Below, piece by piece: positions 21,592 through 36,004 of a stretch of DNA of 36,398 nt. The notes under the pieces are model-generated. The model was not told where the DNA came from and did no database searches. It saw only the letters and a program-made list of their open reading frames with translations. The number at the start of each line of letters is the position of its first letter. Within the stretch, counting starts at the first letter, position 1. The DNA lies in the UHGV virus genome UHGV-1395479. The stretch is one strand, 5' to 3'. The DNA is from a virus. The translations under genes were made by a program, and so were the position numbers.

Positions 21592-22644
21592 TTATTTCCC
21601 CACCAGCTCGTTTATCTCTTTCACTGTCTGGTTAAACCGCTCTGACTCAAGCTCAACACCTAAGGCCCGACGCCCCAGCGCCATTGCTGCTTTTATTGTG
21701 GAACCGGATCCCATAAAGAAATCAGCAACCAGATCGCCTTGTCGACTACTGGCACTGATTATTTGCCGGAGCATATCCGCAGGCTTCTCACACGGATGTT
21801 TACCCGGGTAGAACTGAACGGGTTTATGCGTCCAGACGTCGGTATAAGGCACGGAAACTGATACGGAGAAATAGCGCCGGAGAGTTTTAAACTCATCCAG
21901 CAATTCAGAATATTTGCGATTCAGTGAATCATAAGATGCCACCAGCTGGTGGTGTGGTTGTTCCAGTTGTTGTTCCTGAAATTTCTCTGCCGCTATACGG
22001 GAAAACAGTGCCTGCAACTTCCGGTAGTCAGCCTCATTCGGCAACTGCCACTGACTGGCACCAAACCAGTGGGAAACCATATTTTTCTTACCAGTGGCTT
22101 CGGCAATCTGTTTTGCCGTTATACCCAGTTCGGCACGAGCATCCCTGAAATACGAAATCAGCGGTGCCATTATGTGCTGTTTGAGTTCCCTTTCTTTTGC
22201 CGCATAATCGTCACTTTTGCCGCGATATGGCCCCTGGTAATGTTCAGCAAACAGAACGCGCTCTGTAGCGGGGAAATATGCCCGCAGGCTTTCTTTATTA
22301 CACCCGTTCCATCGTCCGGACGGCTTCGCCCAGATGATATGGTTAAGAACGTTGAAACGTTCACGCATCATGATCTCGATATCAGATGCCAGGCGATGTC
22401 CACAGAACAGGTAAAGGCTTCCGGCTGGTTTCAGTACCCGCCAGAACTGGGCCAGACAGTGGTCCAGCCACTTCAGGTAATCTTCGTCCCCTTTCCACTG
22501 ATTGTCCCAGCCGTTGGGCTTCACTTTGAAGTACGGCGGATCGGTAACAATCAGATCAATGGAGTCATCAGGCAGGGACTGAATAAAATGCAGGCAATCA
22601 GCGTTGATTAAATCAACACTGTTTATTTTTACAGTATTCTTCAT
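21592..22644 (-). CDS. Orphan DNA methyltransferase (amino-MTase, N6-adenine or N4-cytosine; DPPY then FxGxG order)
   Basis: 350 aa; N-terminal motif IV LIVTDPPY and C-terminal motif I FFMGSGST (beta-type motif order); no adjacent restriction enzyme gene; sits in late operon upstream of holin. Confidence 0.8.
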   Translation of the reverse strand: MKNTVKINSVDLINADCLHFIQSLPDDSIDLIVTDPPYFKVKPNGWDNQWKGDEDYLKWLDHCLAQFWRVLKPAGSLYLFCGHRLASDIEIMMRERFNVLNHIIWAKPSGRWNGCNKESLRAYFPATERVLFAEHYQGPYRGKSDDYAAKERELKQHIMAPLISYFRDARAELGITAKQIAEATGKKNMVSHWFGASQWQLPNEADYRKLQALFSRIAAEKFQEQQLEQPHHQLVASYDSLNRKYSELLDEFKTLRRYFSVSVSVPYTDVWTHKPVQFYPGKHPCEKPADMLRQIISASSRQGDLVADFFMGSGSTIKAAMALGRRALGVELESERFNQTVKEINELVGK

Positions 22645-23258: not shown

Positions 23259-24128
23259 GTGACTAAAACAACTTCTTTTCAGATCTTCTACGATGCAGAG
23301 GATAATGAATTAGCACAGCATAAAATTGATGCCAAAACATTAAGCATTTCCATAGGTTCGATGGCAGATTTAATATCAGCAGCTGATAAAAGACTTAATG
23401 ACGGCCAACAAACCGTTAAGTTAATGGTTACTAATCCAGCTGAAGCGGGATCACTCGGCGTATCCTATACGATGATGGAGCTTGTTCCTCATGCCGTCGA
23501 CGTAGCAAAAGTGATTGGCCTAACAGGGATAGCCGGGGCTACTATTGGAGCTCCAGCATTATCACTAATCCGCCAACTGGGCAGCAAGAAAGTAATTTCG
23601 GTAACAAAACGGGCAGGAACAGAAGAATCTGTTCTTGAGCTTGAAGGGGAAGAAATTGTTTGCCATGACTCAGTGGCTAAGTTAGTAACAGATCCAGAAG
23701 TCCGTGATGCCCTTGTGAATGTAGTTCGTGCACCATTAGACGGCAAACAAGGAGCAGTATTTAAGGTGCTGAATGATGAAGGCGAAGAAGTCGTTCGTCT
23801 TGAAGGAAGTGAAACCGAAGAGATCAAACCGCTGCCTAGAGGCACACTACTTGAAAAAGAAGAGTCTGTAGAAGAAGTCAATGTTAGATTCGTACAGATC
23901 AACTTCGAGGGTACAAAGGGTTGGAGAATCGATTATTTAGGCGAAGAGCATGCTGTTACCTTTGAAGATCAGTTGTTTATACACCAAGTTCAAAACGGAA
24001 TCATCAGTTTTACAAAAGAAGATTTGTTTGTTGTTGAGCTAAAAACTATAAAAACTTTCACTGCGCGAAATGCCACAACCAAGTATGCTATAACCAAAGT
24101 AAAACGAAAACGCCCTGCTGAGGCTTGA
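23259..24128 (+). CDS. Hypothetical protein A of an opposite-strand three-gene moron operon (289 aa)
   Basis: GTG start at 23259; long ORF on plus strand amid minus-strand phage genes; AT-rich; acidic, with one hydrophobic Gly-rich stretch (VIGLTGIAGATIGAPALSLI); no catalytic motif recognised. Confidence 0.7.
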   Translation: MTKTTSFQIFYDAEDNELAQHKIDAKTLSISIGSMADLISAADKRLNDGQQTVKLMVTNPAEAGSLGVSYTMMELVPHAVDVAKVIGLTGIAGATIGAPALSLIRQLGSKKVISVTKRAGTEESVLELEGEEIVCHDSVAKLVTDPEVRDALVNVVRAPLDGKQGAVFKVLNDEGEEVVRLEGSETEEIKPLPRGTLLEKEESVEEVNVRFVQINFEGTKGWRIDYLGEEHAVTFEDQLFIHQVQNGIISFTKEDLFVVELKTIKTFTARNATTKYAITKVKRKRPAEA

Positions 24129-24394
24129 CAAAAGTGACACTAAACATGCAGATAGCACAACTGATCTTCTGGATAGGGGTGATAATGATCATCCCTGCCT
24201 TTAGTCGTTTTTGCTATTCAGCGTCAGCCTTGCTTTGGCGTCGACTATTCCCTACAAAAGTCTTCGAATTCCGATATCACGATGAAGATTCCGGAGTGAC
24301 CAAAACGCTAGTAATAAAAGTTCCAAGTAAAAAGGGAAAAATGCTAACAACCCTCATTGATGAGGCAATTGCGGAGAATTCAAAACGAAAATGA
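24125..24394 (+). CDS. Small membrane protein B of the three-gene operon (up to 89 aa, one predicted TM)
   Basis: Start overlaps stop of A (TTG 24125; alternative GTG 24134 or ATG 24146); hydrophobic stretch IAQLIFWIGVIMIIPAF; stop overlaps start of C. Confidence 0.6.
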   Translation: MTKVTLNMQIAQLIFWIGVIMIIPAFSRFCYSASALLWRRLFPTKVFEFRYHDEDSGVTKTLVIKVPSKKGKMLTTLIDEAIAENSKRK

Positions 24395-24813
24395 ATTCTC
24401 AAACTAAAGGTCTAAGCACAGGAAAAGCTACCCTTTCAACTGGTGGTTGGGGAGCAATTTTAAGTGTTCTTGTTAGCGCGATTTTAACCGACCCTAATAG
24501 CGTGTGGCGAACTGTAGCCTACGCATTAGTACCGGGTGTTGCGGCAACTTTAACTTACGTCATGAATTGGTTCATTTCGAGGCATGGTTTCGAATCTCCA
24601 GAAGACGCAGCCAAAAGAGCAAAATGCAAGCGTGATTTGGCTGAGATTGAGAAGCAGTTACGATCTGACCACTTAAGTCCTGAAATAAAATCAACATTGA
24701 TGCAGGCTAAAGCAAGAACAATCGAAATTTTGGTATCAATCGGAAGGGAATCTATACTTGAAACATCTGCGCGTAACATTACACCATCAAAAACTGCCGA
24801 TCCGCAAAGCTGA
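24391..24813 (+). CDS. Membrane protein C of the three-gene operon (140 aa, two predicted TM segments)
   Basis: ATGA start/stop overlap with B at 24391-24394; hydrophobic segments GGWGAILSVLVSAILT and VAYALVPGVAATLTYVMNWFI; charged helical C-terminus. Confidence 0.7.
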   Translation: MNSQTKGLSTGKATLSTGGWGAILSVLVSAILTDPNSVWRTVAYALVPGVAATLTYVMNWFISRHGFESPEDAAKRAKCKRDLAEIEKQLRSDHLSPEIKSTLMQAKARTIEILVSIGRESILETSARNITPSKTADPQS

Positions 24814-26216: not shown

Positions 26217-27014
26217 TCAATGAACGGTATCGAGCAGCTTTAACAGCTCAGGGAATCGGGATTCGAAGAAGTGCGGCTGCGTCTCGCGCGGATTTGCAGG
26301 ACTGGTGATGTTCTTGCCGAACATGCAGCCTTTCGCCGTCAGCGACCAGAATTTTTTGATGTTGTTAATCGCGGTACGGCTGTATCGTTCGCGCTGCTCG
26401 ACGATCCCCAGCTTCACCATCTGGTGATATGCCTGATTAGCCGTCAGGCGGATACCATACTGTTTCAGCAGTGCACTCAGCGACAGCGTGGGGCGACTTG
26501 AGCCATCAGGCGCGTCAGCAGGAGCATCAATGGCATAGCGCGGTGCCAGATTCGGTAAGCCAACAGCCTCCTGGAGTTTCTGACAGGCACCAAGCACAGA
26601 TGAGTTAGACAGGTTTAACTCCCGACGCATAAAGTCCAGCAGGATCACGCCAGCCTGCATCTTGTCAGCAGCCTGTCCTGATAATTTTTCCGGTGCGCTG
26701 GTTACCATATCGAAAGTACGGATCACCTTCAGATGGAATGACGGGCTGATCCACATTGCATAGGCATACACCAGTTCCTTGCAGACATACGTTCCCTGGT
26801 TATTTCCACCTCGAATGACATTTACTGGCGCTATATTGACCGAGTTGCAAATCTGCAACTCGCTTATTAAACGTTCAGTTTGCTCATTGCGGAGCCAGAA
26901 TGCAGGCTTATGCTTATCCAGAGAACCGGCAGCCCTGTGCAGATCGTTCAGGCTGTAACGACCATAAGCATCACGACGAACTTCAATACCATCAATAACC
27001 ATCAGATTACTCAT
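26217..27014 (-). CDS. KilA-N domain protein
   Basis: 265 aa; N-terminal ..IDGIEVRRDAYGRYSLNDLHRAAGSLDKHKPAFWLRNEQTERLI.. resembles KilA-N DNA-binding domain. Confidence 0.5.
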   Translation of the reverse strand: MSNLMVIDGIEVRRDAYGRYSLNDLHRAAGSLDKHKPAFWLRNEQTERLISELQICNSVNIAPVNVIRGGNNQGTYVCKELVYAYAMWISPSFHLKVIRTFDMVTSAPEKLSGQAADKMQAGVILLDFMRRELNLSNSSVLGACQKLQEAVGLPNLAPRYAIDAPADAPDGSSRPTLSLSALLKQYGIRLTANQAYHQMVKLGIVEQRERYSRTAINNIKKFWSLTAKGCMFGKNITSPANPRETQPHFFESRFPELLKLLDTVH

Positions 27015-27033
27015 ACTTCGTTTCTCCTCTTAA

Positions 27034-27423
27034 TCAGGCGGCTGCACCCGCCGTTTTCTCGTACTTACTGATAGTGATTTCGACCTTCCCTTCCGGGATA
27101 ACCGGCCCCCACTCCACCAGCATTCTTTTCACCTGGCTGTCGTCCACCCACACACCCGCGTGGGTCAGGGCGTCAAACAGCGCCTTGTTATAGTTGTCCA
27201 GATCGCGAAGCCGGTTATCCGGAGGAAACAACACGATCTCCACTGAAGCTGGTGCCGACGTTGGTTTCGGCAAACGACGTAACTGCTCAATGATGGCTGC
27301 ACACGCTGCGCTCTGGAATTTTCGCCCCGCCGCGCTTATCAGGCTCTTACCTGCAAGCGCCCCTTTATTGGGGTGTCGCCAGTACGTGTTCACGCTGGGC
27401 GGAAAAGGCAGGATCAATTTCAT
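27034..27423 (-). CDS. rusA: Holliday-junction resolvase RusA
   Basis: 129 aa; ..PPSVNTYWRH.. and ..RLRDLDNYNKALFDALTHAGVWVDDSQV.. match the RusA family catalytic core. Confidence 0.85.
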   Translation of the reverse strand: MKLILPFPPSVNTYWRHPNKGALAGKSLISAAGRKFQSAACAAIIEQLRRLPKPTSAPASVEIVLFPPDNRLRDLDNYNKALFDALTHAGVWVDDSQVKRMLVEWGPVIPEGKVEITISKYEKTAGAAA

Positions 27424-27746
27424 ACTTTCAGGCCCCTCTCATGTAACCAGTGGGCTGCACGCAGCCTGGCGTTTTCCTCACCGGCAAGCAGTGAGCGGAT
27501 AATCCCGACCGCCTCGCTGTCGTCGTCCTTCACCGCGGTATGAAGAGTGATACCCCGGGCCACGCCACGCTTTATCGTGATGACGCCTTTTTTCTCCAGT
27601 GCGCGGAGGTGCTCCACAGCTGCATTCACTGAACGGTATCCCAGCATGGTTGCCACCTCCTGATTGGTTGGCGGAAAGCCACGCTCTTTCTGATAAGAAA
27701 TCAGCATATCCAGCACCTGCTGCTGGCATTGAGTTAACGTCGTCAT
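27420..27746 (-). CDS. LexA N-terminal DNA-binding-domain-like protein (no S24 peptidase domain)
   Basis: From internal Met (start 27746, TAATG overlap with upstream stop): MTTLTQCQQQVLDMLISYQKERGFPPTNQEVATMLGYRSVNAAVEHLRALEKKGVI closely parallels the LexA winged-helix DBD (..[55 protein letters not shown]..). Confidence 0.65.
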   Translation of the reverse strand: MTTLTQCQQQVLDMLISYQKERGFPPTNQEVATMLGYRSVNAAVEHLRALEKKGVITIKRGVARGITLHTAVKDDDSEAVGIIRSLLAGEENARLRAAHWLHERGLKV

Positions 27747-28240
27747 TACGCCCCCACGTAATTCCCTGACAGATACCACTCTTCACCCGATGCAGCGCGC
27801 TTGCTGCTTTTCTGTAAGCACTGCTCACGACGCGCCAGAAAATTGTTTCGTTCTGGCTGGGAGTGGCTTTCACGGAATGCCGCCATCCACACGGTTGCAG
27901 CACGACGGTATAAGCCCCTTGACTCCAGTTCTTCAGCCTGGCGGGTCAGGCACAAAATCACCCGGGGCTCGTTAGTGCCGACATAGAAATTGCGCACAGG
28001 TCTGGTTTCACGAACTGGTTGTGGTTCCGGCTCCTGCGCTCTCTCAGTCAGGCGCGGGAAATGTCTGCGTGTATCTCCTTCACAACGGTGAGCCACACGC
28101 CCACTCTGACGTAACTTGCTTACAGACTGCAGAACGCGCTGCCGTGAGTAACCTGCAAAAGCATCCGCAATGTCTCCGGAAGTACACCCAGGATGGGCTT
28201 CAATGAATTTCTGAACGTCATTTAACAGACTCATGATCAC
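27746..28240 (-). CDS. Putative PerC-family transcriptional regulator-like protein
   Basis: 164 aa; C-terminal ..AEELESRGLYRRAATVWMAA.. resembles the PerC/Pch signature; ATGA overlap with upstream replication gene; family call from memory. Confidence 0.4.
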   Translation of the reverse strand: MIMSLLNDVQKFIEAHPGCTSGDIADAFAGYSRQRVLQSVSKLRQSGRVAHRCEGDTRRHFPRLTERAQEPEPQPVRETRPVRNFYVGTNEPRVILCLTRQAEELESRGLYRRAATVWMAAFRESHSQPERNNFLARREQCLQKSSKRAASGEEWYLSGNYVGA

Positions 28241-29178
28241 CCCCTGAATCCTGCCGGGATCTGGCTGTAGTCCACGTTGTCGTAACTGGATTTGAAGTAC
28301 GGGTCTTCGCGTTTTTCGGTGTACGTGCTGACGGACGGCGATAAGCGCAGGGAAAGCTCATCCCATTTTTCCCGCAGCTTCGACGGGCTGAGCACGTTAC
28401 GGCACCAGAACGGATCGCGACTGACGCGGCTGTACATCTCGCAGATTTGTTTATGATTACGACCATCCTGCACACACATCAGGCGAATTTCGTTTGCCCA
28501 GGCTGTCCAGTTCGGTTCTTTGGGACGAACCACCTCGCCGTCACATTCGGCGGCATGCTCGTACAGGGCGATGATTTTTTTCCAGAGCCACTGTGCGCAG
28601 GTCAAATCATCCTGCGTTCCCCACTGGCGCTTTTTAGGGCTGAATACAACCGCATCAGGATGACGAGTTAAAAAATCCTGTTCAGCCGTCTTCGTGTCCG
28701 GTTGCGGAGCGTCCGGACGAGAAGGTTTTTTATCTGACGGATCATGTTTTGATTTTACTGACGGATCCCCGCCAGATTCTGACGGGTGAAAACCCGCTTT
28801 TTTGCCAGATTTCGACGCATCAAATTTTGACGGGTCAGATTTTGATGCGTTAGATTTTGACGGGTCAGAATCTGACAGTTGAGAAAATGCCGCTGCCTGA
28901 AGCTTCGCAACGTTAAGCTGATAAACATTCGACGCATTGCGGTTACCCTGGCGACGCGCCTTACGCGTTAACCAGCCTTCTGCTTCCAGCCGTGCGATAG
29001 CCGTTCTGACGGTACTCATCCCCGCGCCAATCTGACGGGCAATGGTTTCAATTGATGGCCAGCACACACCTTCGTCATTACTGAAATCAGCCAGGCGGGC
29101 CATAATTGCCACGCTGGATAATTTCATGCCTGACGCAGCGCAACCATCCCATACATAGCCGGTTAATTTAGTGCTCAT
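28237..29178 (-). CDS. Replication initiation protein (O-like, N-terminal winged-helix, internal iterons)
   Basis: 313 aa; N-terminal HTH (..CWPSIETIARQIGAGMSTVRTAIARLEAEGWLTRK..); central repeated SDPSK linker encoded by tandem DNA repeats; follows cro/cII-like genes. Confidence 0.6.
   Translation of the reverse strand: MSTKLTGYVWDGCAASGMKLSSVAIMARLADFSNDEGVCWPSIETIARQIGAGMSTVRTAIARLEAEGWLTRKARRQGNRNASNVYQLNVAKLQAAAFSQLSDSDPSKSNASKSDPSKFDASKSGKKAGFHPSESGGDPSVKSKHDPSDKKPSRPDAPQPDTKTAEQDFLTRHPDAVVFSPKKRQWGTQDDLTCAQWLWKKIIALYEHAAECDGEVVRPKEPNWTAWANEIRLMCVQDGRNHKQICEMYSRVSRDPFWCRNVLSPSKLREKWDELSLRLSPSVSTYTEKREDPYFKSSYDNVDYSQIPAGFRG
28731..28880. repeat. Iteron-like direct repeat array inside the replication gene (candidate origin of replication)
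   Basis: About 7 copies of a GATTTTGACGGGTC-like unit (e.g. ATTTTGACGGGTCAGA at 28824-28839 and 28854-28869; TGACGGATC at 28735 and 28759; TGACGGGTG at 28780) spaced 15-30 bp, plus inverted GACGCATCAAA / TTTGATGCGT. Confidence 0.6.
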
Positions 29179-29187
29179 GACCGACCT

Positions 29188-29526
29188 CTATTTCCCTGAA
29201 TTTACGACGAAACTGTTCGAGCGGGCTGAAGCACTCATGCTCATAGCCTTCACGGAGGTAGATAACCCGTTGTGTTTCCGGCTCCCAACGAATGACTCTG
29301 ACGGGCACTCCGTAGTGATCTTTGAACCAGCGGTTAACTTGTCGCAAAGGACTGTCTCCTTCTGCCGGTTGAAATCACCCACAGCCCACTCTGCAAAGCT
29401 GTGGGTTACAATTTCCCTGTCACCTGGTACATTCACTGCATAGCAATATTCCACCTTCGCTTTTCCACCCGGTACAGGAAGCGCAATCAGTTGCGAGCGA
29501 CGGTAGTGTGTTGTTAAACTGTTCAT
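29188..29526 (-). CDS. Hypothetical protein (reading frame uncertain)
   Basis: ATGA coupling to upstream gene at 29523-29526, but a second minus-strand frame over 29190-29330 gives a more protein-like translation; see findings. Confidence 0.35.
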
Positions 29527-30080
29527 GCGTTAGTTTCTCCACAACCAGAAGCAATCGACGCCACGACGCCCGGAGCTGCACACTCGCGGGCGTCATTACT
29601 TTCTGAAATGCAAAAAATTTTGTAGACAAGTGCTGCATGCTCCTGCAGCTTCGAAATTGAGAGATACAGCTCGTCGTTAATTGCTGTCTTCTCATGCGGT
29701 TCCACTACACCGTCTTCGATTGCTGAACGAATCTGTTTTGAATAACTGCCGATCTGTTCAATGACTTCCAGCAGACGCTGGTTAATATCGGCGTTGTCCA
29801 CATCCTCGACGTCAGGAAGAGACACAAAGACGCCATTTGCAGACTGCGCCACAGCATCAGCAATGAAGTGAGTGCCACCAGCACGCTGTAAAACCATTGC
29901 CCATCCCAGCGGGAAAATCTGATCGCCATCTGCACGAAGGCGGTTGAATAAAGCGTTTTCTGTTACATCGAGCCAGTCAGCCGCTTCAGCGTAACCACCC
30001 GGCAACGCCGCGATAGTTTTTCTGACAGCTTTCACGTACCACTCAGGCTGTTTTTCCACTTTCCAGTGATGATTACCCAC
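29523..30080 (-). CDS. Hypothetical early protein in cII position (possibly YdaT-like)
   Basis: 185 aa, immediately downstream of and overlapping cro; family assignment tentative. Confidence 0.35.
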
Positions 30081-30333
30081 GGCTTACCTCCTGTTCCTGT
30101 GGTTTAAACCCATTCTGGTTTTGGCTAGATTGAAAACGTGCCGGATAAAGAATCTGCATTTCGCTGATTTCACCCTTAAAAAAATTGGCCAGACGTTCTG
30201 CAAGATCGATAGATGGAATTTGTTCCAGTCTTTCAATACGACTCAGCGTCGCTGGATTGACCTGAACGCCAGCAGCAACATGCTGCAAAGTAAATCCGTG
30301 CGCCTTACGCACATTCCGTAATGGTGATTGCAT
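30073..30333 (-). CDS. cro: Cro-like HTH repressor
   Basis: 86 aa; HTH FTLQHVAAGVQVNPATLSRIERLEQ; GGAGG SD; divergent from cI across an operator region. Confidence 0.8.
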   Translation of the reverse strand: MQSPLRNVRKAHGFTLQHVAAGVQVNPATLSRIERLEQIPSIDLAERLANFFKGEISEMQILYPARFQSSQNQNGFKPQEQEVSRG

Positions 30334-30430: not shown

Positions 30431-31123
30431 ATGAACATAGGAAACCGAGTCAGACAACTTCGCCAGGCGAAGAACATGAAAATCGCCGATCTCGCTGAAG
30501 CAATAGGAGTGGATGCGGCGAATATCTCACGCTTGGAAACAGGTAAGCAGAAACAATTCACTGAACAAGCCCTGAGTAATATTGCCAGGAGCTTAGGTGT
30601 TGATATTGCTGATCTCTTTACCTCAGACGTCAAAAGTAATACTGTATGTAAAAACAGTATTAGTGAGGATGTTGCGCAGGTGAAGGATGTATTCCGTATT
30701 GAAATGCTGGATGTCAGTGCCAGTGCGGGAAATGGCCTTATCCAGGGCGGTGATGTCATTGATGTGATTCATGCCATTGAATACAGAACTGATAATGCTG
30801 TATCGATGTTTGGCGGACGGCCAGCCAATCACATTAAAGTTATCAACGTTCGTGGGGACAGTATGTGTCCAACCATTGAGCCAGGAGATCTCATCTTCGT
30901 TGATGTCAGTATCAATCAGTTTGATGGAGATGGTATCTATGTATTTGGTTTTGATGATAAAATTTATGTCAAACGACTGCAAATGATACCTGACAAACTA
31001 CTGGTGATTTCTGATAACCAGATTTACCGTGAATGGGGAATTACCAGCGAAAATGAACACCGGTTTATGGTCTTTGGAAAGGTCTTAATCAGCCAGTCAC
31101 AAACCCTTAAGCGACACAATTAA
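30431..31123 (+). CDS. cI: cI-like repressor (N-terminal HTH, C-terminal S24 LexA-like autopeptidase)
   Basis: 230 aa; HTH IADLAEAIGVDAANISRLETG; S24 Ser/Lys dyad motifs VRGDSMCPTIEPGDLIFVD and FGKVL; no SD, start abuts operator (leaderless-type as in lambda pRM). Confidence 0.9.
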   Translation: MNIGNRVRQLRQAKNMKIADLAEAIGVDAANISRLETGKQKQFTEQALSNIARSLGVDIADLFTSDVKSNTVCKNSISEDVAQVKDVFRIEMLDVSASAGNGLIQGGDVIDVIHAIEYRTDNAVSMFGGRPANHIKVINVRGDSMCPTIEPGDLIFVDVSINQFDGDGIYVFGFDDKIYVKRLQMIPDKLLVISDNQIYREWGITSENEHRFMVFGKVLISQSQTLKRHN

Positions 31124-34043: not shown

Positions 34044-35154
34044 AAATAATGTTTCAGTCCCGAACTTGTATCCGCTTTATAGCAGAAAAGTAAATAAAGT
34101 CTATTGGCGATATAAACATCCAGTGACCGGGAAGTTTCATTCTTTAGGCACAAACGAAGCTGAAGCCATTGCTATTGCCACTGAGGCAAATTCACGCCTG
34201 GCTGAGCAAAGAACCCGGCAGATTCTGGCTATCAGTGACAGGATCGCAACCAGCAAAGGAAAAGCAATCACAACGTCAACCTGGTTAGATCGCTATCAAG
34301 CAATCCAGGATGACAGACTGGAAAGTGGCGATATAAAGCTCAACACCTATAAACAGAAAGCCAAACCAGTATCCTTGCTCAGGGAACGAGCAGGAATGAA
34401 ATTAATTTCATCAGTTGATGTAAGGGATATAGCACAATTGCTTGACGAGTATATCACTGCCGGGCAACCGAGGATGGCGCAAGTAGTCCGCTCCGTTCTA
34501 ATTGATGTATTCAAGGAGGCACAACACTATGGGGAAGTCCCTCCGGGCTATAATCCTGCACTGGCAACCAAACAACCCAGAAGAAAAATTACCCGACAAC
34601 GGTTAAATCTTGAAGAGTGGCAAAAAATCTTTGATATTGCAGATGCCAGTCATCGTTATATGGGGAATGCCATGCTGTTAGCACTGGTTACCGGCCAACG
34701 GTTAGGTGATATCTCACGTATGAAATTTAGCGATATTTGGGATGATCATCTTCACGTCATCCAGGAAAAAACCGGGAGCAAAATCGCCATCCCGCTTTCT
34801 CTGCGCCTCAATGCGATTAACTGGAGTTTGCGCGATGTAGTAGCCCGTTGCCGTGACTATGCTGTCAGCCCATACCTTGTACATTTTTTTCGTACTACTT
34901 CACAGGCTGAACGCGGCGCACAGGTTAAAGCCAATACCTTGACTATGAATTTCAGTAAAGCAAGAGATTTAGCAGGAATTGATTGGGGGAAAGGTTCACC
35001 TGCCACATTCCATGAACAACGGTCTTTATCTGAACGTCTGTACAAAGAACAGGGGATCGATACTAGAAAGCTACTGGGCCATAAAACCCAGCAGCAAACA
35101 GATCGCTACCATGATGACCGAGGGAAAGATTGGAGTAAAATAGCTATAATTTGA
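34024..35154 (+). CDS. int: Tyrosine integrase (lambda Int family)
   Basis: 376 aa; lambda Int-like throughout, including ..FHEQRSLSERLY.. and catalytic-Tyr region LLGHKTQQQTDRYHDDRGKDW. Confidence 0.95.
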   Translation: MAARPRKNNVSVPNLYPLYSRKVNKVYWRYKHPVTGKFHSLGTNEAEAIAIATEANSRLAEQRTRQILAISDRIATSKGKAITTSTWLDRYQAIQDDRLESGDIKLNTYKQKAKPVSLLRERAGMKLISSVDVRDIAQLLDEYITAGQPRMAQVVRSVLIDVFKEAQHYGEVPPGYNPALATKQPRRKITRQRLNLEEWQKIFDIADASHRYMGNAMLLALVTGQRLGDISRMKFSDIWDDHLHVIQEKTGSKIAIPLSLRLNAINWSLRDVVARCRDYAVSPYLVHFFRTTSQAERGAQVKANTLTMNFSKARDLAGIDWGKGSPATFHEQRSLSERLYKEQGIDTRKLLGHKTQQQTDRYHDDRGKDWSKIAII

Positions 35155-36004
35155 CTCTTGTAGGATCCATATCATCAGGAATAGAAATGCTATCACAAAA
35201 AAAGATTACTTCTGGCCCTTGGTACCTAGATTGAGCACTATAGCTGATACCGTACTCAATTTTTCTAAGACCAGTGTACATGTTGTTTATTTCAACAGTA
35301 TTATCGTAAGATACAATCCATGGATGCTTTGAATTAGATTTTATAATATTAGCAATTTCGACATGATCATCATGACTATAATGGTTTTGATACAAGCCCT
35401 TTCCTTTAACATAATATGGAGGGTCAAGATAAAGCAATGTTTTTAATGGGAATCCAGTTACAGTATTTTGCAAGAATGATTTAGCATCTTGGTTATAGAT
35501 ACAAATATCAGATTTACGGTCTGCTATTACCTTAATACGGTTTACTAAATCAACCTTATTAAATCGAGCATCTATTTTCCATTTTCCATTTTGTTCCTTA
35601 CCACCAATTACACCACCTAACAAAATTCCTGACCGATTTGTTCGATTAAGGAAAAACGTAGCGAATCCAACTTCCAATGAGGAATAATCACATTGATTAC
35701 TAATGATATTTTTATTCTTATACCATTCATCCATATTCACAGGGGTTTTTTCAATTAATTGGCAAAACTGATCAGTTTCTTCTAGAATTGACCGCCAAAA
35801 ACAAAAAATGGCGTTATTAAGATCGTTTAAATGTATACGTGATGCTTTCCCAGACAAAAGTAAATTAATGGCTACTCCAGCACCACCAGCATACGGCTCA
35901 ACATATTCGCAACCATCTAAACCATTGATCATAATGATCTTTGATAGATAGTTAGTTAATTTACCTTTACCACCAGGATACCGTAATGGGGTGCTGAATC
36001 TCAT
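35144..36004 (-). CDS. Dam-like (D12 class) N6-adenine DNA methyltransferase
   Basis: 286 aa; N-terminal motif I VEPYAGGAGVAINLL and C-terminal LYLDPPYY; very AT-rich; its stop overlaps the int stop (convergent). Confidence 0.8.
   Translation of the reverse strand: MRFSTPLRYPGGKGKLTNYLSKIIMINGLDGCEYVEPYAGGAGVAINLLLSGKASRIHLNDLNNAIFCFWRSILEETDQFCQLIEKTPVNMDEWYKNKNIISNQCDYSSLEVGFATFFLNRTNRSGILLGGVIGGKEQNGKWKIDARFNKVDLVNRIKVIADRKSDICIYNQDAKSFLQNTVTGFPLKTLLYLDPPYYVKGKGLYQNHYSHDDHVEIANIIKSNSKHPWIVSYDNTVEINNMYTGLRKIEYGISYSAQSRYQGPEVIFFCDSISIPDDMDPTRVKL

What the first reader, a model, noticed from the sequence alone, without database searches (positions are those of the whole stretch)
27420..28240. 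LexA DNA-binding-domain-only protein, translationally coupled to a PerC-like regulator
Seen in sequence: the 108-aa product starting at 27746 aligns by eye along its whole N-terminal 70 residues with the LexA winged-helix DBD but has no S24 peptidase domain (no Ser/Lys dyad region), so it could not autocleave. It overlaps (TAATG) the preceding gene, whose C-terminus carries a PerC-like ..LESRGLYRRAA..W motif. Inference: a non-cleavable LexA-DBD mimic could bind SOS boxes or heterodimerise with LexA to rewire the host SOS response, or tune prophage induction; a PerC-like partner would suggest host-gene regulation by the prophage.
Basis: partly seen in the sequence, partly recalled or inferred. 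Interest (0 to 1): 0.6.

Follow-up and report, generated by a model that had tools for sequence, protein, structure and literature searches.

The report
Phage LexA DNA-binding-domain-only regulator gene
A common prophage gene encodes just the DNA-binding half of the bacterial SOS repressor LexA plus a short helical tail; it is real and cannot self-cleave, it is already catalogued in about 40% of E. coli genomes, its function is untested, and its link to the neighbouring PerC-like gene is incidental.

Summary
On the minus strand, 27420-27746 encodes a 108-aa protein. Residues 1-68 are a full LexA winged-helix domain (Pfam E=2.9e-19; 43% identical to E. coli LexA 1-86; model fits the LexA-DNA crystal structure at 1.0 A). 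There is no S24 peptidase domain. Its ATG overlaps (TAATG) the stop of a 162/164-aa YfdN-type PerC-family gene.

The gene is ordinary in distribution. It occurs in 2233 of 5426 complete E. coli genomes and in SfV, SfII, SfIV, mEp460, cdtI and Stx2c phages, annotated "LexA family transcriptional regulator". The conserved neighbours are a DNA methylase upstream and RusA downstream. The PerC adjacency here results from an exact ATG-to-ATG absence of the dam cassette.

Family-specific features are a conserved C-terminal two-helix hairpin and universal loss of LexA contact residue Glu44, with Ser39, Asn41 and Ala42 largely kept.

My best reading (inferred, ~0.4) is a non-cleavable early-operon LexA surrogate that dimerises through the hairpin and binds CTGT-type palindromes after host LexA is cleaved. 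The main rival is a regulator with its own operator, like GIL01 gp6. Heterodimerising with LexA is not supported.

Two strong SOS boxes lie in the window, but they also occur in phages lacking this gene.

The parts
27420..27746 (-). LexA-DBD-only gene, 108 aa (WP_000210164-type 'LexA family transcriptional regulator'; PHROG 362)
   Evidence: ORF list. Pfam PF01726 E=2.9e-19 and no S24 hit. PHROG 362 E=1.4e-59. PGAP annotation of a 100% identical locus.
27591..27632 (-). Codons 39-52, the recognition helix (SVNAAVEHLRALEK). It keeps LexA contact residues Ser39, Asn41, Ala42 and Glu45; Glu44 is Val.
   Evidence: Model helix H40-52. Alignments to LexA. Contact-residue list from PMC3091678.
27438..27524 (-). 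Codons 75-103, the family-specific C-terminal helical hairpin (H75-88, H93-103) with conserved hydrophobic positions and invariant Ala97. It is the proposed dimerisation or partner-binding element.
   Evidence: AF2 secondary structure, pLDDT about 85. Conservation across 29 homologues down to about 40% identity.
27744..27748 (-). TAATG stop/start overlap between yfdN and the LexA-DBD gene, preceded by a GGGGG Shine-Dalgarno-like run
   Evidence: Sequence. The same TAATG joins yfdN to dam in SfV.
27420..27423 (-). ATGA start/stop overlap between the LexA-DBD gene and rusA
   Evidence: The same 4-nt overlap is seen in SfII, SfV, Cronobacter and Citrobacter loci.
27746..28240 (-). yfdN-type PerC-family gene (162/164 aa): a weak MarR-like winged helix at the N terminus (aa 10-57) and a PerC domain (aa 98-149)
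   Evidence: Pfam PerC E=6.6e-9, above the gathering score; MarR_2 E=3e-4, below it. Weak ANR hit, 22 bits against a cut-off of 32. PHROG 1324. PGAP gene name yfdN.
27034..27423 (-). RusA Holliday-junction resolvase gene, the conserved downstream neighbour
   Evidence: Pfam RusA E=1.1e-14. Synteny.
28237..29178 (-). O-like replication initiator gene (upstream of yfdN), with 15-bp iterons at 28806-28880
   Evidence: PHROG 391 E=9e-134. Repeat family D1.
30640..30659 (.). Near-consensus SOS box TACTGTATGTAAAAACAGTA inside the cI-like repressor gene. It is a candidate site for host LexA and possibly for the phage protein; no link to the phage protein has been shown.
   Evidence: PSSM score 25.3 bits, with 0.003 boxes of at least 20 bits expected per shuffled window. 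It is an island of identity within a diverged linker.
22617..22636 (.). Near-consensus SOS box CACTGTTTATTTTTACAGTA in codons 3-9 of the late-operon N6/N4 DNA methyltransferase gene. It is a candidate LexA-type site; no link to the phage protein has been shown.
   Evidence: PSSM score 22.6 bits. The box is kept in SfV, mEp460, phiNP and Morganella phage IME1369_02.

Best explanation
Shown: 27420-27746(-) is a real, conserved prophage gene. Its product is a LexA-type winged-helix DNA-binding domain followed by a 35-residue conserved helical hairpin, with no S24 protease domain. It lies in the tightly packed early-right (nin-like) operon of a lambdoid prophage integrated at icd. The gene order is cro, cII-like, O-like, yfdN, [dam in most relatives], LexA-DBD, rusA, KilA-N, DUF968, Q. 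It has overlapping stop/start codons on both sides.

Inferred: the gene is silent in the lysogen and is made after CI inactivation or on infection. The hairpin replaces the LexA C-terminal domain as the dimerisation module. The dimer binds CTGT-type palindromes (SOS boxes or close variants), because the recognition helix is nearly that of LexA. Because it cannot be cleaved by the RecA*-stimulated reaction, it would act as a stable LexA surrogate once host LexA has been destroyed. In that role it would re-impose control on SOS-box promoters of the host, of co-resident mobile elements, and perhaps on the phage's own two SOS boxes. This matches what is known for stabilised LexA 1-84 fragments (my own knowledge, not checked here). 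The sign of regulation (repression or activation) is not determined. The PerC-like neighbour is a separate early gene, not an obligate partner.
For: Domain identity.

Real gene: homologues of 106-135 aa down to about 40% identity occur in E. coli, Shigella, Salmonella, Citrobacter, Cronobacter, Atlantibacter and Hafnia, with the same length and synteny.

Recognition helix: it is 75% identical to E. coli LexA here and 71% on family mean, against 50% for the whole domain and 30-41% for helices 1 and 2. Ser39 and Asn41 are invariant. Wing residues Arg64, Gly65 and Ile66 are invariant and identical to LexA.

Closer to LexA than to the diverged phage homologue: GIL01 gp6 shows no BLASTP-detectable similarity to this protein, and its helix 3 is different.

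Operon placement: no promoter-like or terminator-like site lies on the coding strand across 26900-29400. Start/stop codons overlap on both sides.

Need for two DBDs: S24-less proteins with tandem LexA_DNA_bind domains exist, and the tail has conserved hydrophobic positions.

Strong LexA-type sites exist in this phage.
Against: Nothing here measures DNA binding, oligomeric state or expression.

Glu44, one of five LexA contact residues, is replaced in all 29 family members. Residue 45 varies (E, D, T, G or I), so specificity may be shifted and may differ between clades.

Cronobacter and Citrobacter loci that carry homologues have no SOS box of at least 14 bits within 12 kb.

The window's two SOS boxes also occur in phages phiNP and IME1369_02, which lack the gene. 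They are therefore explained by host LexA alone.

A repressor sitting on the box at the start of the late-operon methylase gene would seem counter-productive for a lytic phage.

The only characterised precedent, gp6, evolved a different operator and activates transcription.

A linked-dimer structure prediction could not be run.
Confidence: 0.4

Rival explanations
1. It is a phage-specific transcription factor with its own operator, working like GIL01 gp6. A LexA-derived DBD has drifted in specificity (Glu44 lost) and activates or represses one or a few phage promoters, for example timing of late, lysis or cargo genes. It would have no action on the host SOS regulon.
For: gp6 is a LexA-DBD-only early protein that binds GaCACAC-GTGTGaC at -43.5 of the late promoter and activates it. 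Glu44 is lost family-wide and residue 45 varies. Diverged homologue loci contain no SOS boxes. Short stand-alone LexA-DBD proteins are common in phage proteomes.
Against: No palindrome (half-site of 5-6 nt, spacer 0-14) is shared among five diverged loci that carry homologues. These phages already have a Q antiterminator for late genes. The recognition helix stays much closer to LexA than gp6's does.
Confidence: 0.3
2. It is a DNA-transaction accessory rather than a transcription factor. The winged helix would target or modulate the neighbouring Dam methylase, RusA resolvase or replication proteins on phage DNA.
For: The gene lies directly downstream of a DNA methylase (Dam in E. coli, Cronobacter and Citrobacter; a C5 methylase nearby in a Salmonella locus). 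It is usually directly upstream of rusA with a 4-nt overlap. In one metagenomic locus it lies next to a phage recA.
Against: Nin-region gene order is mosaic, and RusA and Dam occur widely without this gene. The fold and conserved residues are those of a sequence-specific operator-binding domain.
Confidence: 0.1
3. It forms a dedicated two-gene regulatory pair with the PerC-like YfdN protein. The pair would be translationally coupled, act together, and control host (virulence) genes.
For: The TAATG overlap in this window. In E. coli and Shigella phage records the two genes nearly always co-occur within one 2-kb module. PerC-family proteins of mobile elements regulate LEE and adhesion genes.
Against: dam separates the two genes in SfV, SfII, mEp460 and in 7 of the 11 full-length hits in a 12-row sample of E. 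coli genomes. The overlap is inherited from the yfdN-dam junction. Citrobacter and cdtI have the LexA-DBD gene only, and ST64B has YfdN only. Every adjacent gene pair from the O-like gene to rusA overlaps in the same way.
Confidence: 0.05
4. It is a LexA poison or decoy. The protein would heterodimerise with host LexA, or block its sites without repressing, and so induce or prolong the SOS response.
For: It shares the DNA-binding surface with LexA. By my own knowledge (not checked here), LexA N-terminal domains can contact each other on DNA.
Against: The LexA dimer interface, in the C-terminal domain, is absent. The tail is a different, helical structure. At the time this early gene is predicted to be made after induction, LexA is already cleaved.
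Confidence: 0.03

Closest known systems
E. coli LexA repressor, N-terminal domain (the LexA 1-84 cleavage fragment)
   Same: Same fold and the closest sequence relative: 43% identity over 90 residues, rmsd 1.0 A to 3JSO. The recognition helix is SVNAAVEHLRAL against [12 protein letters not shown]. Wing residues RGI are identical. Homology runs on into the linker and cleavage-site region (LLAGE against VAAGE).
   Different: There is no S24 domain, no Ser/Lys dyad and no C-terminal-domain dimer interface. Glu44 is Val. A conserved helical hairpin (residues 75-103) follows the domain. The 'AG' dipeptide is not conserved in the family (AN, VG, EG and NG variants occur). The gene is phage-encoded in an early operon rather than an autoregulated chromosomal gene.
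Bacillus tectivirus GIL01 gp6 (ORF6), a truncated LexA homologue that activates late promoter P3
   Same: It is a phage-encoded early protein consisting of a LexA DNA-binding domain without the protease domain, acting when host LexA is inactivated.
   Different: It is an independent derivation. There is no BLASTP-detectable similarity. gp6 is 66 aa with no C-terminal hairpin. Its helix 3 is SHKTAHRYLMQL with the critical Lys38. Its host is Gram-positive and its phage type is unrelated. Whether the window protein activates or represses is unknown.
PerC/Pch family (EPEC PerC, EHEC PchA-E, K-12 YfdN, PICI EcCIMP1_025), for the upstream gene
   Same: The upstream protein passes the Pfam PerC gathering score and is the orthologue of K-12 yfdN by PGAP naming. 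Family members are typical cargo or regulators of prophages and PICIs.
   Different: At 162 aa it is longer than PchA-C (315-bp genes), with an extra N-terminal MarR-like winged helix. The papers read report no regulatory activity for YfdN itself. Family members can activate, do nothing, or repress LEE.
Other S24-less LexA_DNA_bind architectures (tandem double-DBD proteins; 65-150-aa phage 'LexA DNA-binding domain' proteins)
   Same: They have the same domain without the protease and are frequent in phage and metagenome proteins.
   Different: Those proteins solve the two-DBD requirement by tandem duplication, or have no extension at all. This family instead has a single DBD plus a conserved helical hairpin.

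Membership tests
LexA repressor (TIGR00498 equivalog) | N-terminal LexA-type winged-helix DNA-binding domain | tested here: met
   PF01726 matches the full profile, E=2.9e-19. Foldseek best hit is 3JSO, rmsd 1.0 A, 51% identity.
LexA repressor (TIGR00498 equivalog) | C-terminal S24 peptidase domain with the Ser119/Lys156 dyad | tested here: not met
   The protein ends at residue 108. There is no Peptidase_S24 hit. The TIGR00498 score is 70.8, below the 110.95 cut-off, and only model positions 1-91 are matched.
LexA repressor (TIGR00498 equivalog) | Ala84-Gly85 cleavage site used in RecA*-stimulated autocleavage | tested here: not met
   An Ala-Gly pair (residues 87-88) aligns with LexA's VAAGE, but it is AN, VG, EG or NG in homologues and lies in a predicted helix-turn. 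No protease domain is present to cleave it in cis.
LexA repressor (TIGR00498 equivalog) | Binds the CTGT-N8-ACAG SOS box as a dimer | not testable with these tools
   Four of five contact residues are kept (Ser39, Asn41, Ala42, Glu45), and Glu44 is Val. Strong SOS boxes exist in the window but are not specific to phages that carry the gene.
gp6-type phage LexA-DBD-only regulators (GIL01) | Phage early gene encoding a LexA DBD without the S24 domain | tested here: met
   with the operon context.
gp6-type phage LexA-DBD-only regulators (GIL01) | Sequence orthology to gp6, including the Lys38-type recognition helix | tested here: not met
   No BLASTP alignment at E<=100. Helix 3 differs.
gp6-type phage LexA-DBD-only regulators (GIL01) | Binds a palindrome overlapping the -35 element of a late promoter and activates it | tested here: inconclusive
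   No palindrome is shared among five diverged loci. No experiment was possible.
PerC family (PF06069), upstream gene | PerC domain above the Pfam gathering score | tested here: met
   36.4 bits against 22.6, residues 98-149.
PerC family (PF06069), upstream gene | Activates LEE1/ler transcription | not testable with these tools
   Family members differ: PchA-C activate, PchD and PchE have little effect, and EcCIMP1_025 represses. No data for YfdN were found in the papers read.

The most novel reading that the evidence does not exclude
The protein is a phage-made, RecA-proof LexA surrogate. It would be produced from the early operon only after host LexA and CI have been cleaved. It would dimerise through its helical hairpin and re-occupy SOS boxes. 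That would shut the host SOS regulon back off and silence LexA-controlled functions of rival prophages, colicin plasmids or defence genes. It might also act on the conserved SOS boxes inside its own cI gene and at the head of its late methylase/lysis block. As the gene is in about 41% of complete E. coli genomes and in Stx2 phages, this would be a widespread viral take-over of the SOS switch.
Probability: 0.25. Interest if true: 0.65.

Novelty: new member of a known kind. Interest (0 to 1): 0.35.

Why it matters
If the protein binds SOS boxes, a very common prophage gene would let induced phages reset the host DNA-damage response. The gene is in 2233 of 5426 complete E. coli genomes, with up to four copies per genome, and it is present in Stx2a, Stx2c and Stx2k converting phages and in Shigella serotype-converting phages. 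Resetting the SOS response bears on Shiga-toxin phage induction by antibiotics, on competition among co-resident prophages, and on SOS-driven mutagenesis. If instead it has its own operator, it adds an unrecognised regulator to the otherwise well-studied lambdoid early operon. Either outcome can be reached with simple experiments. As it stands, the gene is an already annotated, homology-named family, and the concept has a published precedent (GIL01 gp6).

Tried and rejected
1. SOS boxes as targets of the phage protein. I built a symmetric PSSM from 24 E. coli SOS boxes recalled from memory. It finds two strong boxes in the window. All phage records with this cI allele (13/13) or with a methylase 5' end at least 95% identical (27/27) also carry the LexA-DBD gene. 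However, Citrobacter phage phiNP and Morganella phage IME1369_02 keep the boxes without the gene. Cronobacter and Citrobacter prophages with the gene have no box within 12 kb. I therefore rejected the boxes as evidence for a specific target.

2. A shared operator. I enumerated all inverted repeats (half-site 5 or 6 nt, spacer 0-14) across five diverged loci. Nothing was shared except a hairpin at the end of the cII-like gene.

3. Dimer prediction.

4. An own promoter or terminator for the gene. None was found on its strand. No consensus promoter lies beside either SOS box.

5. An RNA element or repeat in the finding's span. Rfam gave nothing in the whole window. The only repeats nearby are iterons in the O-like gene.

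6. A defence or anti-defence role. PADLOC gave no meaningful hit for either protein.

7. Literature. I found no paper on SfV orf42 or this family. The LexA-DNA structure paper and Porter et al. 2005 were not held. The contact-residue list is therefore second-hand.

8. The relic 'AG' as a trans-cleavage site. I rejected this because the dipeptide is not conserved.
Full report
**What is at the coordinates**

Both genes of the finding are on the minus strand. ORF 27420-27746 (ATG at 27746, 108 aa) follows ORF 27746-28240. The upstream ORF is 164 aa from the GTG chosen by PGAP, or 162 aa from the ATG at 28234. The two overlap in the sequence GGGGGCGTAATGACG, so the TAA stop and the ATG start share one base. 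The 108-aa ORF in turn overlaps the rusA start by ATGA.

**Identity of the 108-aa protein**

- It matches Pfam LexA_DNA_bind over the entire 65-position profile (E=2.9e-19). There is no Peptidase_S24 hit.
- It matches the NCBIfam lexA equivalog only over model positions 1-91 and scores below that model's cut-off.
- BLASTP against E. coli LexA gives 43% identity over 90 residues.
- All PDB sequence hits are LexA.
- An AlphaFold2 model built on 29 homologues (pLDDT 82.7) has the LexA topology of three helices and a two-stranded wing, followed by two further helices at residues 75-88 and 93-103.
- Foldseek places the model on LexA in the LexA-operator crystal structure at 1.0 A rmsd.

**Identity of the upstream protein**

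It passes the Pfam PerC gathering score at residues 98-149. It also has a weak MarR-like winged helix at residues 10-57 and a sub-threshold ANR hit. PGAP names it yfdN in a 100% identical E. coli chromosome.

**Genomic context**

The window is a lambdoid prophage at the icd site, next to intE and xisE. The gene order is as follows.

- The immunity region has a cI-like S24 repressor (30431-31123, plus strand), cro, and a CP76/cII-like ymfL.
- The early-right operon continues with a DUF4222 gene, an O-like initiator carrying 15-bp iterons, yfdN, the LexA-DBD gene, rusA, a KilA-N gene, DUF968 and Q.
- Two opposite-strand cargo genes follow, then a small ORF, an N6/N4 DNA methyltransferase, and the lysis genes.

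No promoter-like or terminator-like site lies on the coding strand between 26900 and 29400. The simplest reading is that the gene is transcribed only from the CI-repressed early promoter.

**How common the gene is**

- The 327-bp gene is found at 90% identity or more in 2233 of 5426 complete E. coli genomes, with up to four copies per genome. It is annotated "LexA family transcriptional regulator".
- It occurs in 61 phage records, including SfV (orf42), SfII, SfIV, mEp460, cdtI, Ayreon, 2H10, and Stx2a, Stx2c and Stx2k converting phages.
- Homologues of 106-135 aa, down to about 40% identity, occur in prophages of Salmonella, Citrobacter, Cronobacter, Atlantibacter and Hafnia.
- It belongs to PHROG 362, named "transcriptional repressor" by homology.
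- I found no paper that tests its function.

**The PerC link is incidental**

- In SfV, SfII, mEp460 and 7 of the 11 full-length hits in a 12-row sample of E. coli genomes, a dam methylase gene lies between yfdN and the LexA-DBD gene.
- The junctions show why. SfV reads ...GGGGGCTTAATGAGTAAT (dam) ... GGTGGCATGACGACG. The window reads ...GGGGGCGTAATGACGACG. The dam cassette is absent exactly from its ATG to the next ATG, and the TAATG overlap is the old yfdN-dam junction.
- At 45-50% protein identity, Cronobacter prophages keep PerC-Dam-LexA_DBD-RusA. Citrobacter prophages have Dam-LexA_DBD-RusA with no PerC gene.
- Phage cdtI has the LexA-DBD gene but no YfdN-type gene. Salmonella phage ST64B has the YfdN type but no LexA-DBD gene.
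- The conserved neighbourhood is a DNA methylase upstream and RusA/DUF968/Q downstream.

**What the sequence says about mechanism**

Across 29 family members, the recognition helix is the region most like E. coli LexA (mean 71% identity). The whole domain averages 50%, and helices 1 and 2 average 30-41%.

The LexA contact residues, as summarised in PMC3091678, are Ser39, Asn41, Ala42, Glu44 and Glu45. Their fate in the family is as follows.

| Residue | In the family (29 members) |
|---|---|
| Ser39 | invariant |
| Asn41 | invariant |
| Ala42 | largely kept |
| Glu44 | never kept: V, A, T, L, N, F or G (Val here) |
| Glu45 | E or D in most members; T, G or I in four |

Wing residues Arg64, Gly65 and Ile66 are invariant and identical to LexA. 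The domain thus looks built to read a CTGT-like half-site, with one contact changed throughout the family.

Sequence homology to LexA continues through the linker and cleavage-site region (LLAGE against VAAGE). This suggests descent from a full-length gammaproteobacterial LexA by truncation. The Ala-Gly pair is not conserved, and the segment is predicted to be helical.

The 35-residue tail has conserved hydrophobic positions and an invariant Ala97. A two-helix hairpin cannot bury these residues alone, so it probably packs in a dimer or against a partner. S24-less proteins with two tandem LexA domains exist, which fits a requirement for two DNA-binding domains.

**Candidate DNA sites**

A PSSM built from 24 E. 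coli SOS boxes recalled from memory finds two boxes of at least 20 bits in the window. Only 0.003 such boxes are expected per shuffled window.

- TACTGTATGTAAAAACAGTA lies at 30640-30659, in the linker-coding part of cI.
- CACTGTTTATTTTTACAGTA lies at 22617-22636, in codons 3-9 of the late methyltransferase gene.

Both look selected. The cI box is an island of identity in an otherwise diverged linker between this allele and that of Citrobacter phage phiNP. The methylase box keeps its CTGT...ACAG core in a Morganella phage whose gene is only 72% identical.

However, phiNP and the Morganella phage lack the LexA-DBD gene. The Cronobacter and Citrobacter prophages that have it show no SOS box within 12 kb. 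The boxes are therefore explained by host LexA and give no specific support to the phage protein binding them, although it might. No palindrome is shared among five diverged loci that carry homologues.

**Comparison with what is known**

The only characterised LexA-DBD-only phage protein I found is GIL01 gp6. It is an early protein that binds a palindrome unlike the Bacillus LexA box at -43.5 of the late promoter and activates it. gp6 has no BLASTP-detectable similarity to the window protein, lacks the hairpin, and has a different helix 3. The two are independent truncations of different LexA proteins.

Short LexA-domain proteins are common in phage proteomes.

From my own knowledge, not checked here:
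- The isolated LexA N-terminal domain binds operators specifically but weakly, and it dimerises on DNA.
- A stabilised LexA 1-84 fragment keeps repressing SOS genes.

These points make the surrogate model mechanistically reasonable.

**Verdict**

The finding is real, and its first-order reading is right: a LexA DNA-binding domain that cannot autocleave.
- the proposed PerC partnership;
- heterodimerisation with LexA;
- action in the lysogen.

The gene is an abundant, already annotated family of unknown function. Its most likely role (about 0.4) is a non-cleavable LexA-type regulator of the induced or infecting phage. A gp6-like regulator with its own operator is the main alternative (about 0.3). 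Interest is moderate-low, because the concept has a precedent and nothing here is surprising. The hypothesis is cheap to test, and the gene sits in medically relevant phages.

Noticed in passing
window 30640-30659 (inside the cI-like gene 30431-31123, plus strand); also L002 7283-7302 (SfII) and L011 35267-35286 (phiNP): A near-consensus 20-bp LexA box (TACTGTATGTAAAAACAGTA, 25.3 bits) lies in the linker-coding region of the CI-type repressor gene. It is an island of nucleotide identity in an otherwise diverged linker between two cI alleles. No consensus promoter is adjacent, and I found no description of it in the papers I searched. Its function is unexplained; it could be an intragenic promoter, a roadblock, or a site for the phage LexA-DBD.
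   Followed up: partly
window 22617-22636 (codons 3-9 of the N6/N4 DNA methyltransferase gene 21592-22644, minus strand): A second strong LexA box (CACTGTTTATTTTTACAGTA, 22.6 bits) lies just inside the first gene of the late block, after Q and its terminators and before the holin gene. The CTGT...ACAG core is kept in SfV, mEp460, Citrobacter phiNP and a Morganella phage whose gene is 72% identical. It might act as a LexA roadblock against leaky late/lysis transcription in lysogens.
   Followed up: partly
window 27744-27748, compared with L003 (SfV) 29609-29616 and 30262-30268: The dam methylase cassette present in most relatives is absent here as an exact ATG-to-ATG indel bounded by ATGA microhomology. 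This fuses the yfdN stop directly to the LexA-DBD start.
   Followed up: yes
window 28806-28880 (inside the O-like gene 28237-29178, minus strand): Overlapping 15-bp-spaced iterons (CAGATTTTGACGGGT-like; four 30-nt copies spanning five 15-bp units, plus flanking inverted copies) lie within the replication-initiator gene. This is probably the phage origin. The repeats encode the repetitive DPSKS(N/D)ASKS segment of the protein.
   Followed up: no
window 23259-24128 (plus strand) and 24391-24813 (plus strand): Two opposite-strand cargo genes lie between Q and the late block. The 289-aa product matches the PADLOC candidate defence family PDC-S42 (E=8e-33). The 140-aa product has no hit. Genes of similar size in the same arrangement sit at this position in a Citrobacter prophage (L008); their homology was not tested.
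   Followed up: no
window 35144-36004 (minus strand), continuing beyond the window end (L001 28145-30784): A D12-class adenine methylase matches PD-Lambda-5_B (E=1.9e-121). It lies next to an AAA ATPase gene just outside the prophage integrase. This is probably a PD-Lambda-5 defence system abutting the prophage at icd.
   Followed up: no
proteins P0156, P0160, P0133, P0148: These proteins have two tandem LexA_DNA_bind domains and no S24 domain (140-352 aa). This is another way of making an uncleavable two-headed LexA-type binder.
   Followed up: partly
L013 404-2231 (metagenome scaffold): A 133-aa family member lies two genes downstream of a phage-encoded RecA. In Salmonella locus L014 the homologue follows a C5 DNA methylase. 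This is a recurrent association with DNA-transaction genes, of unclear meaning.
   Followed up: no
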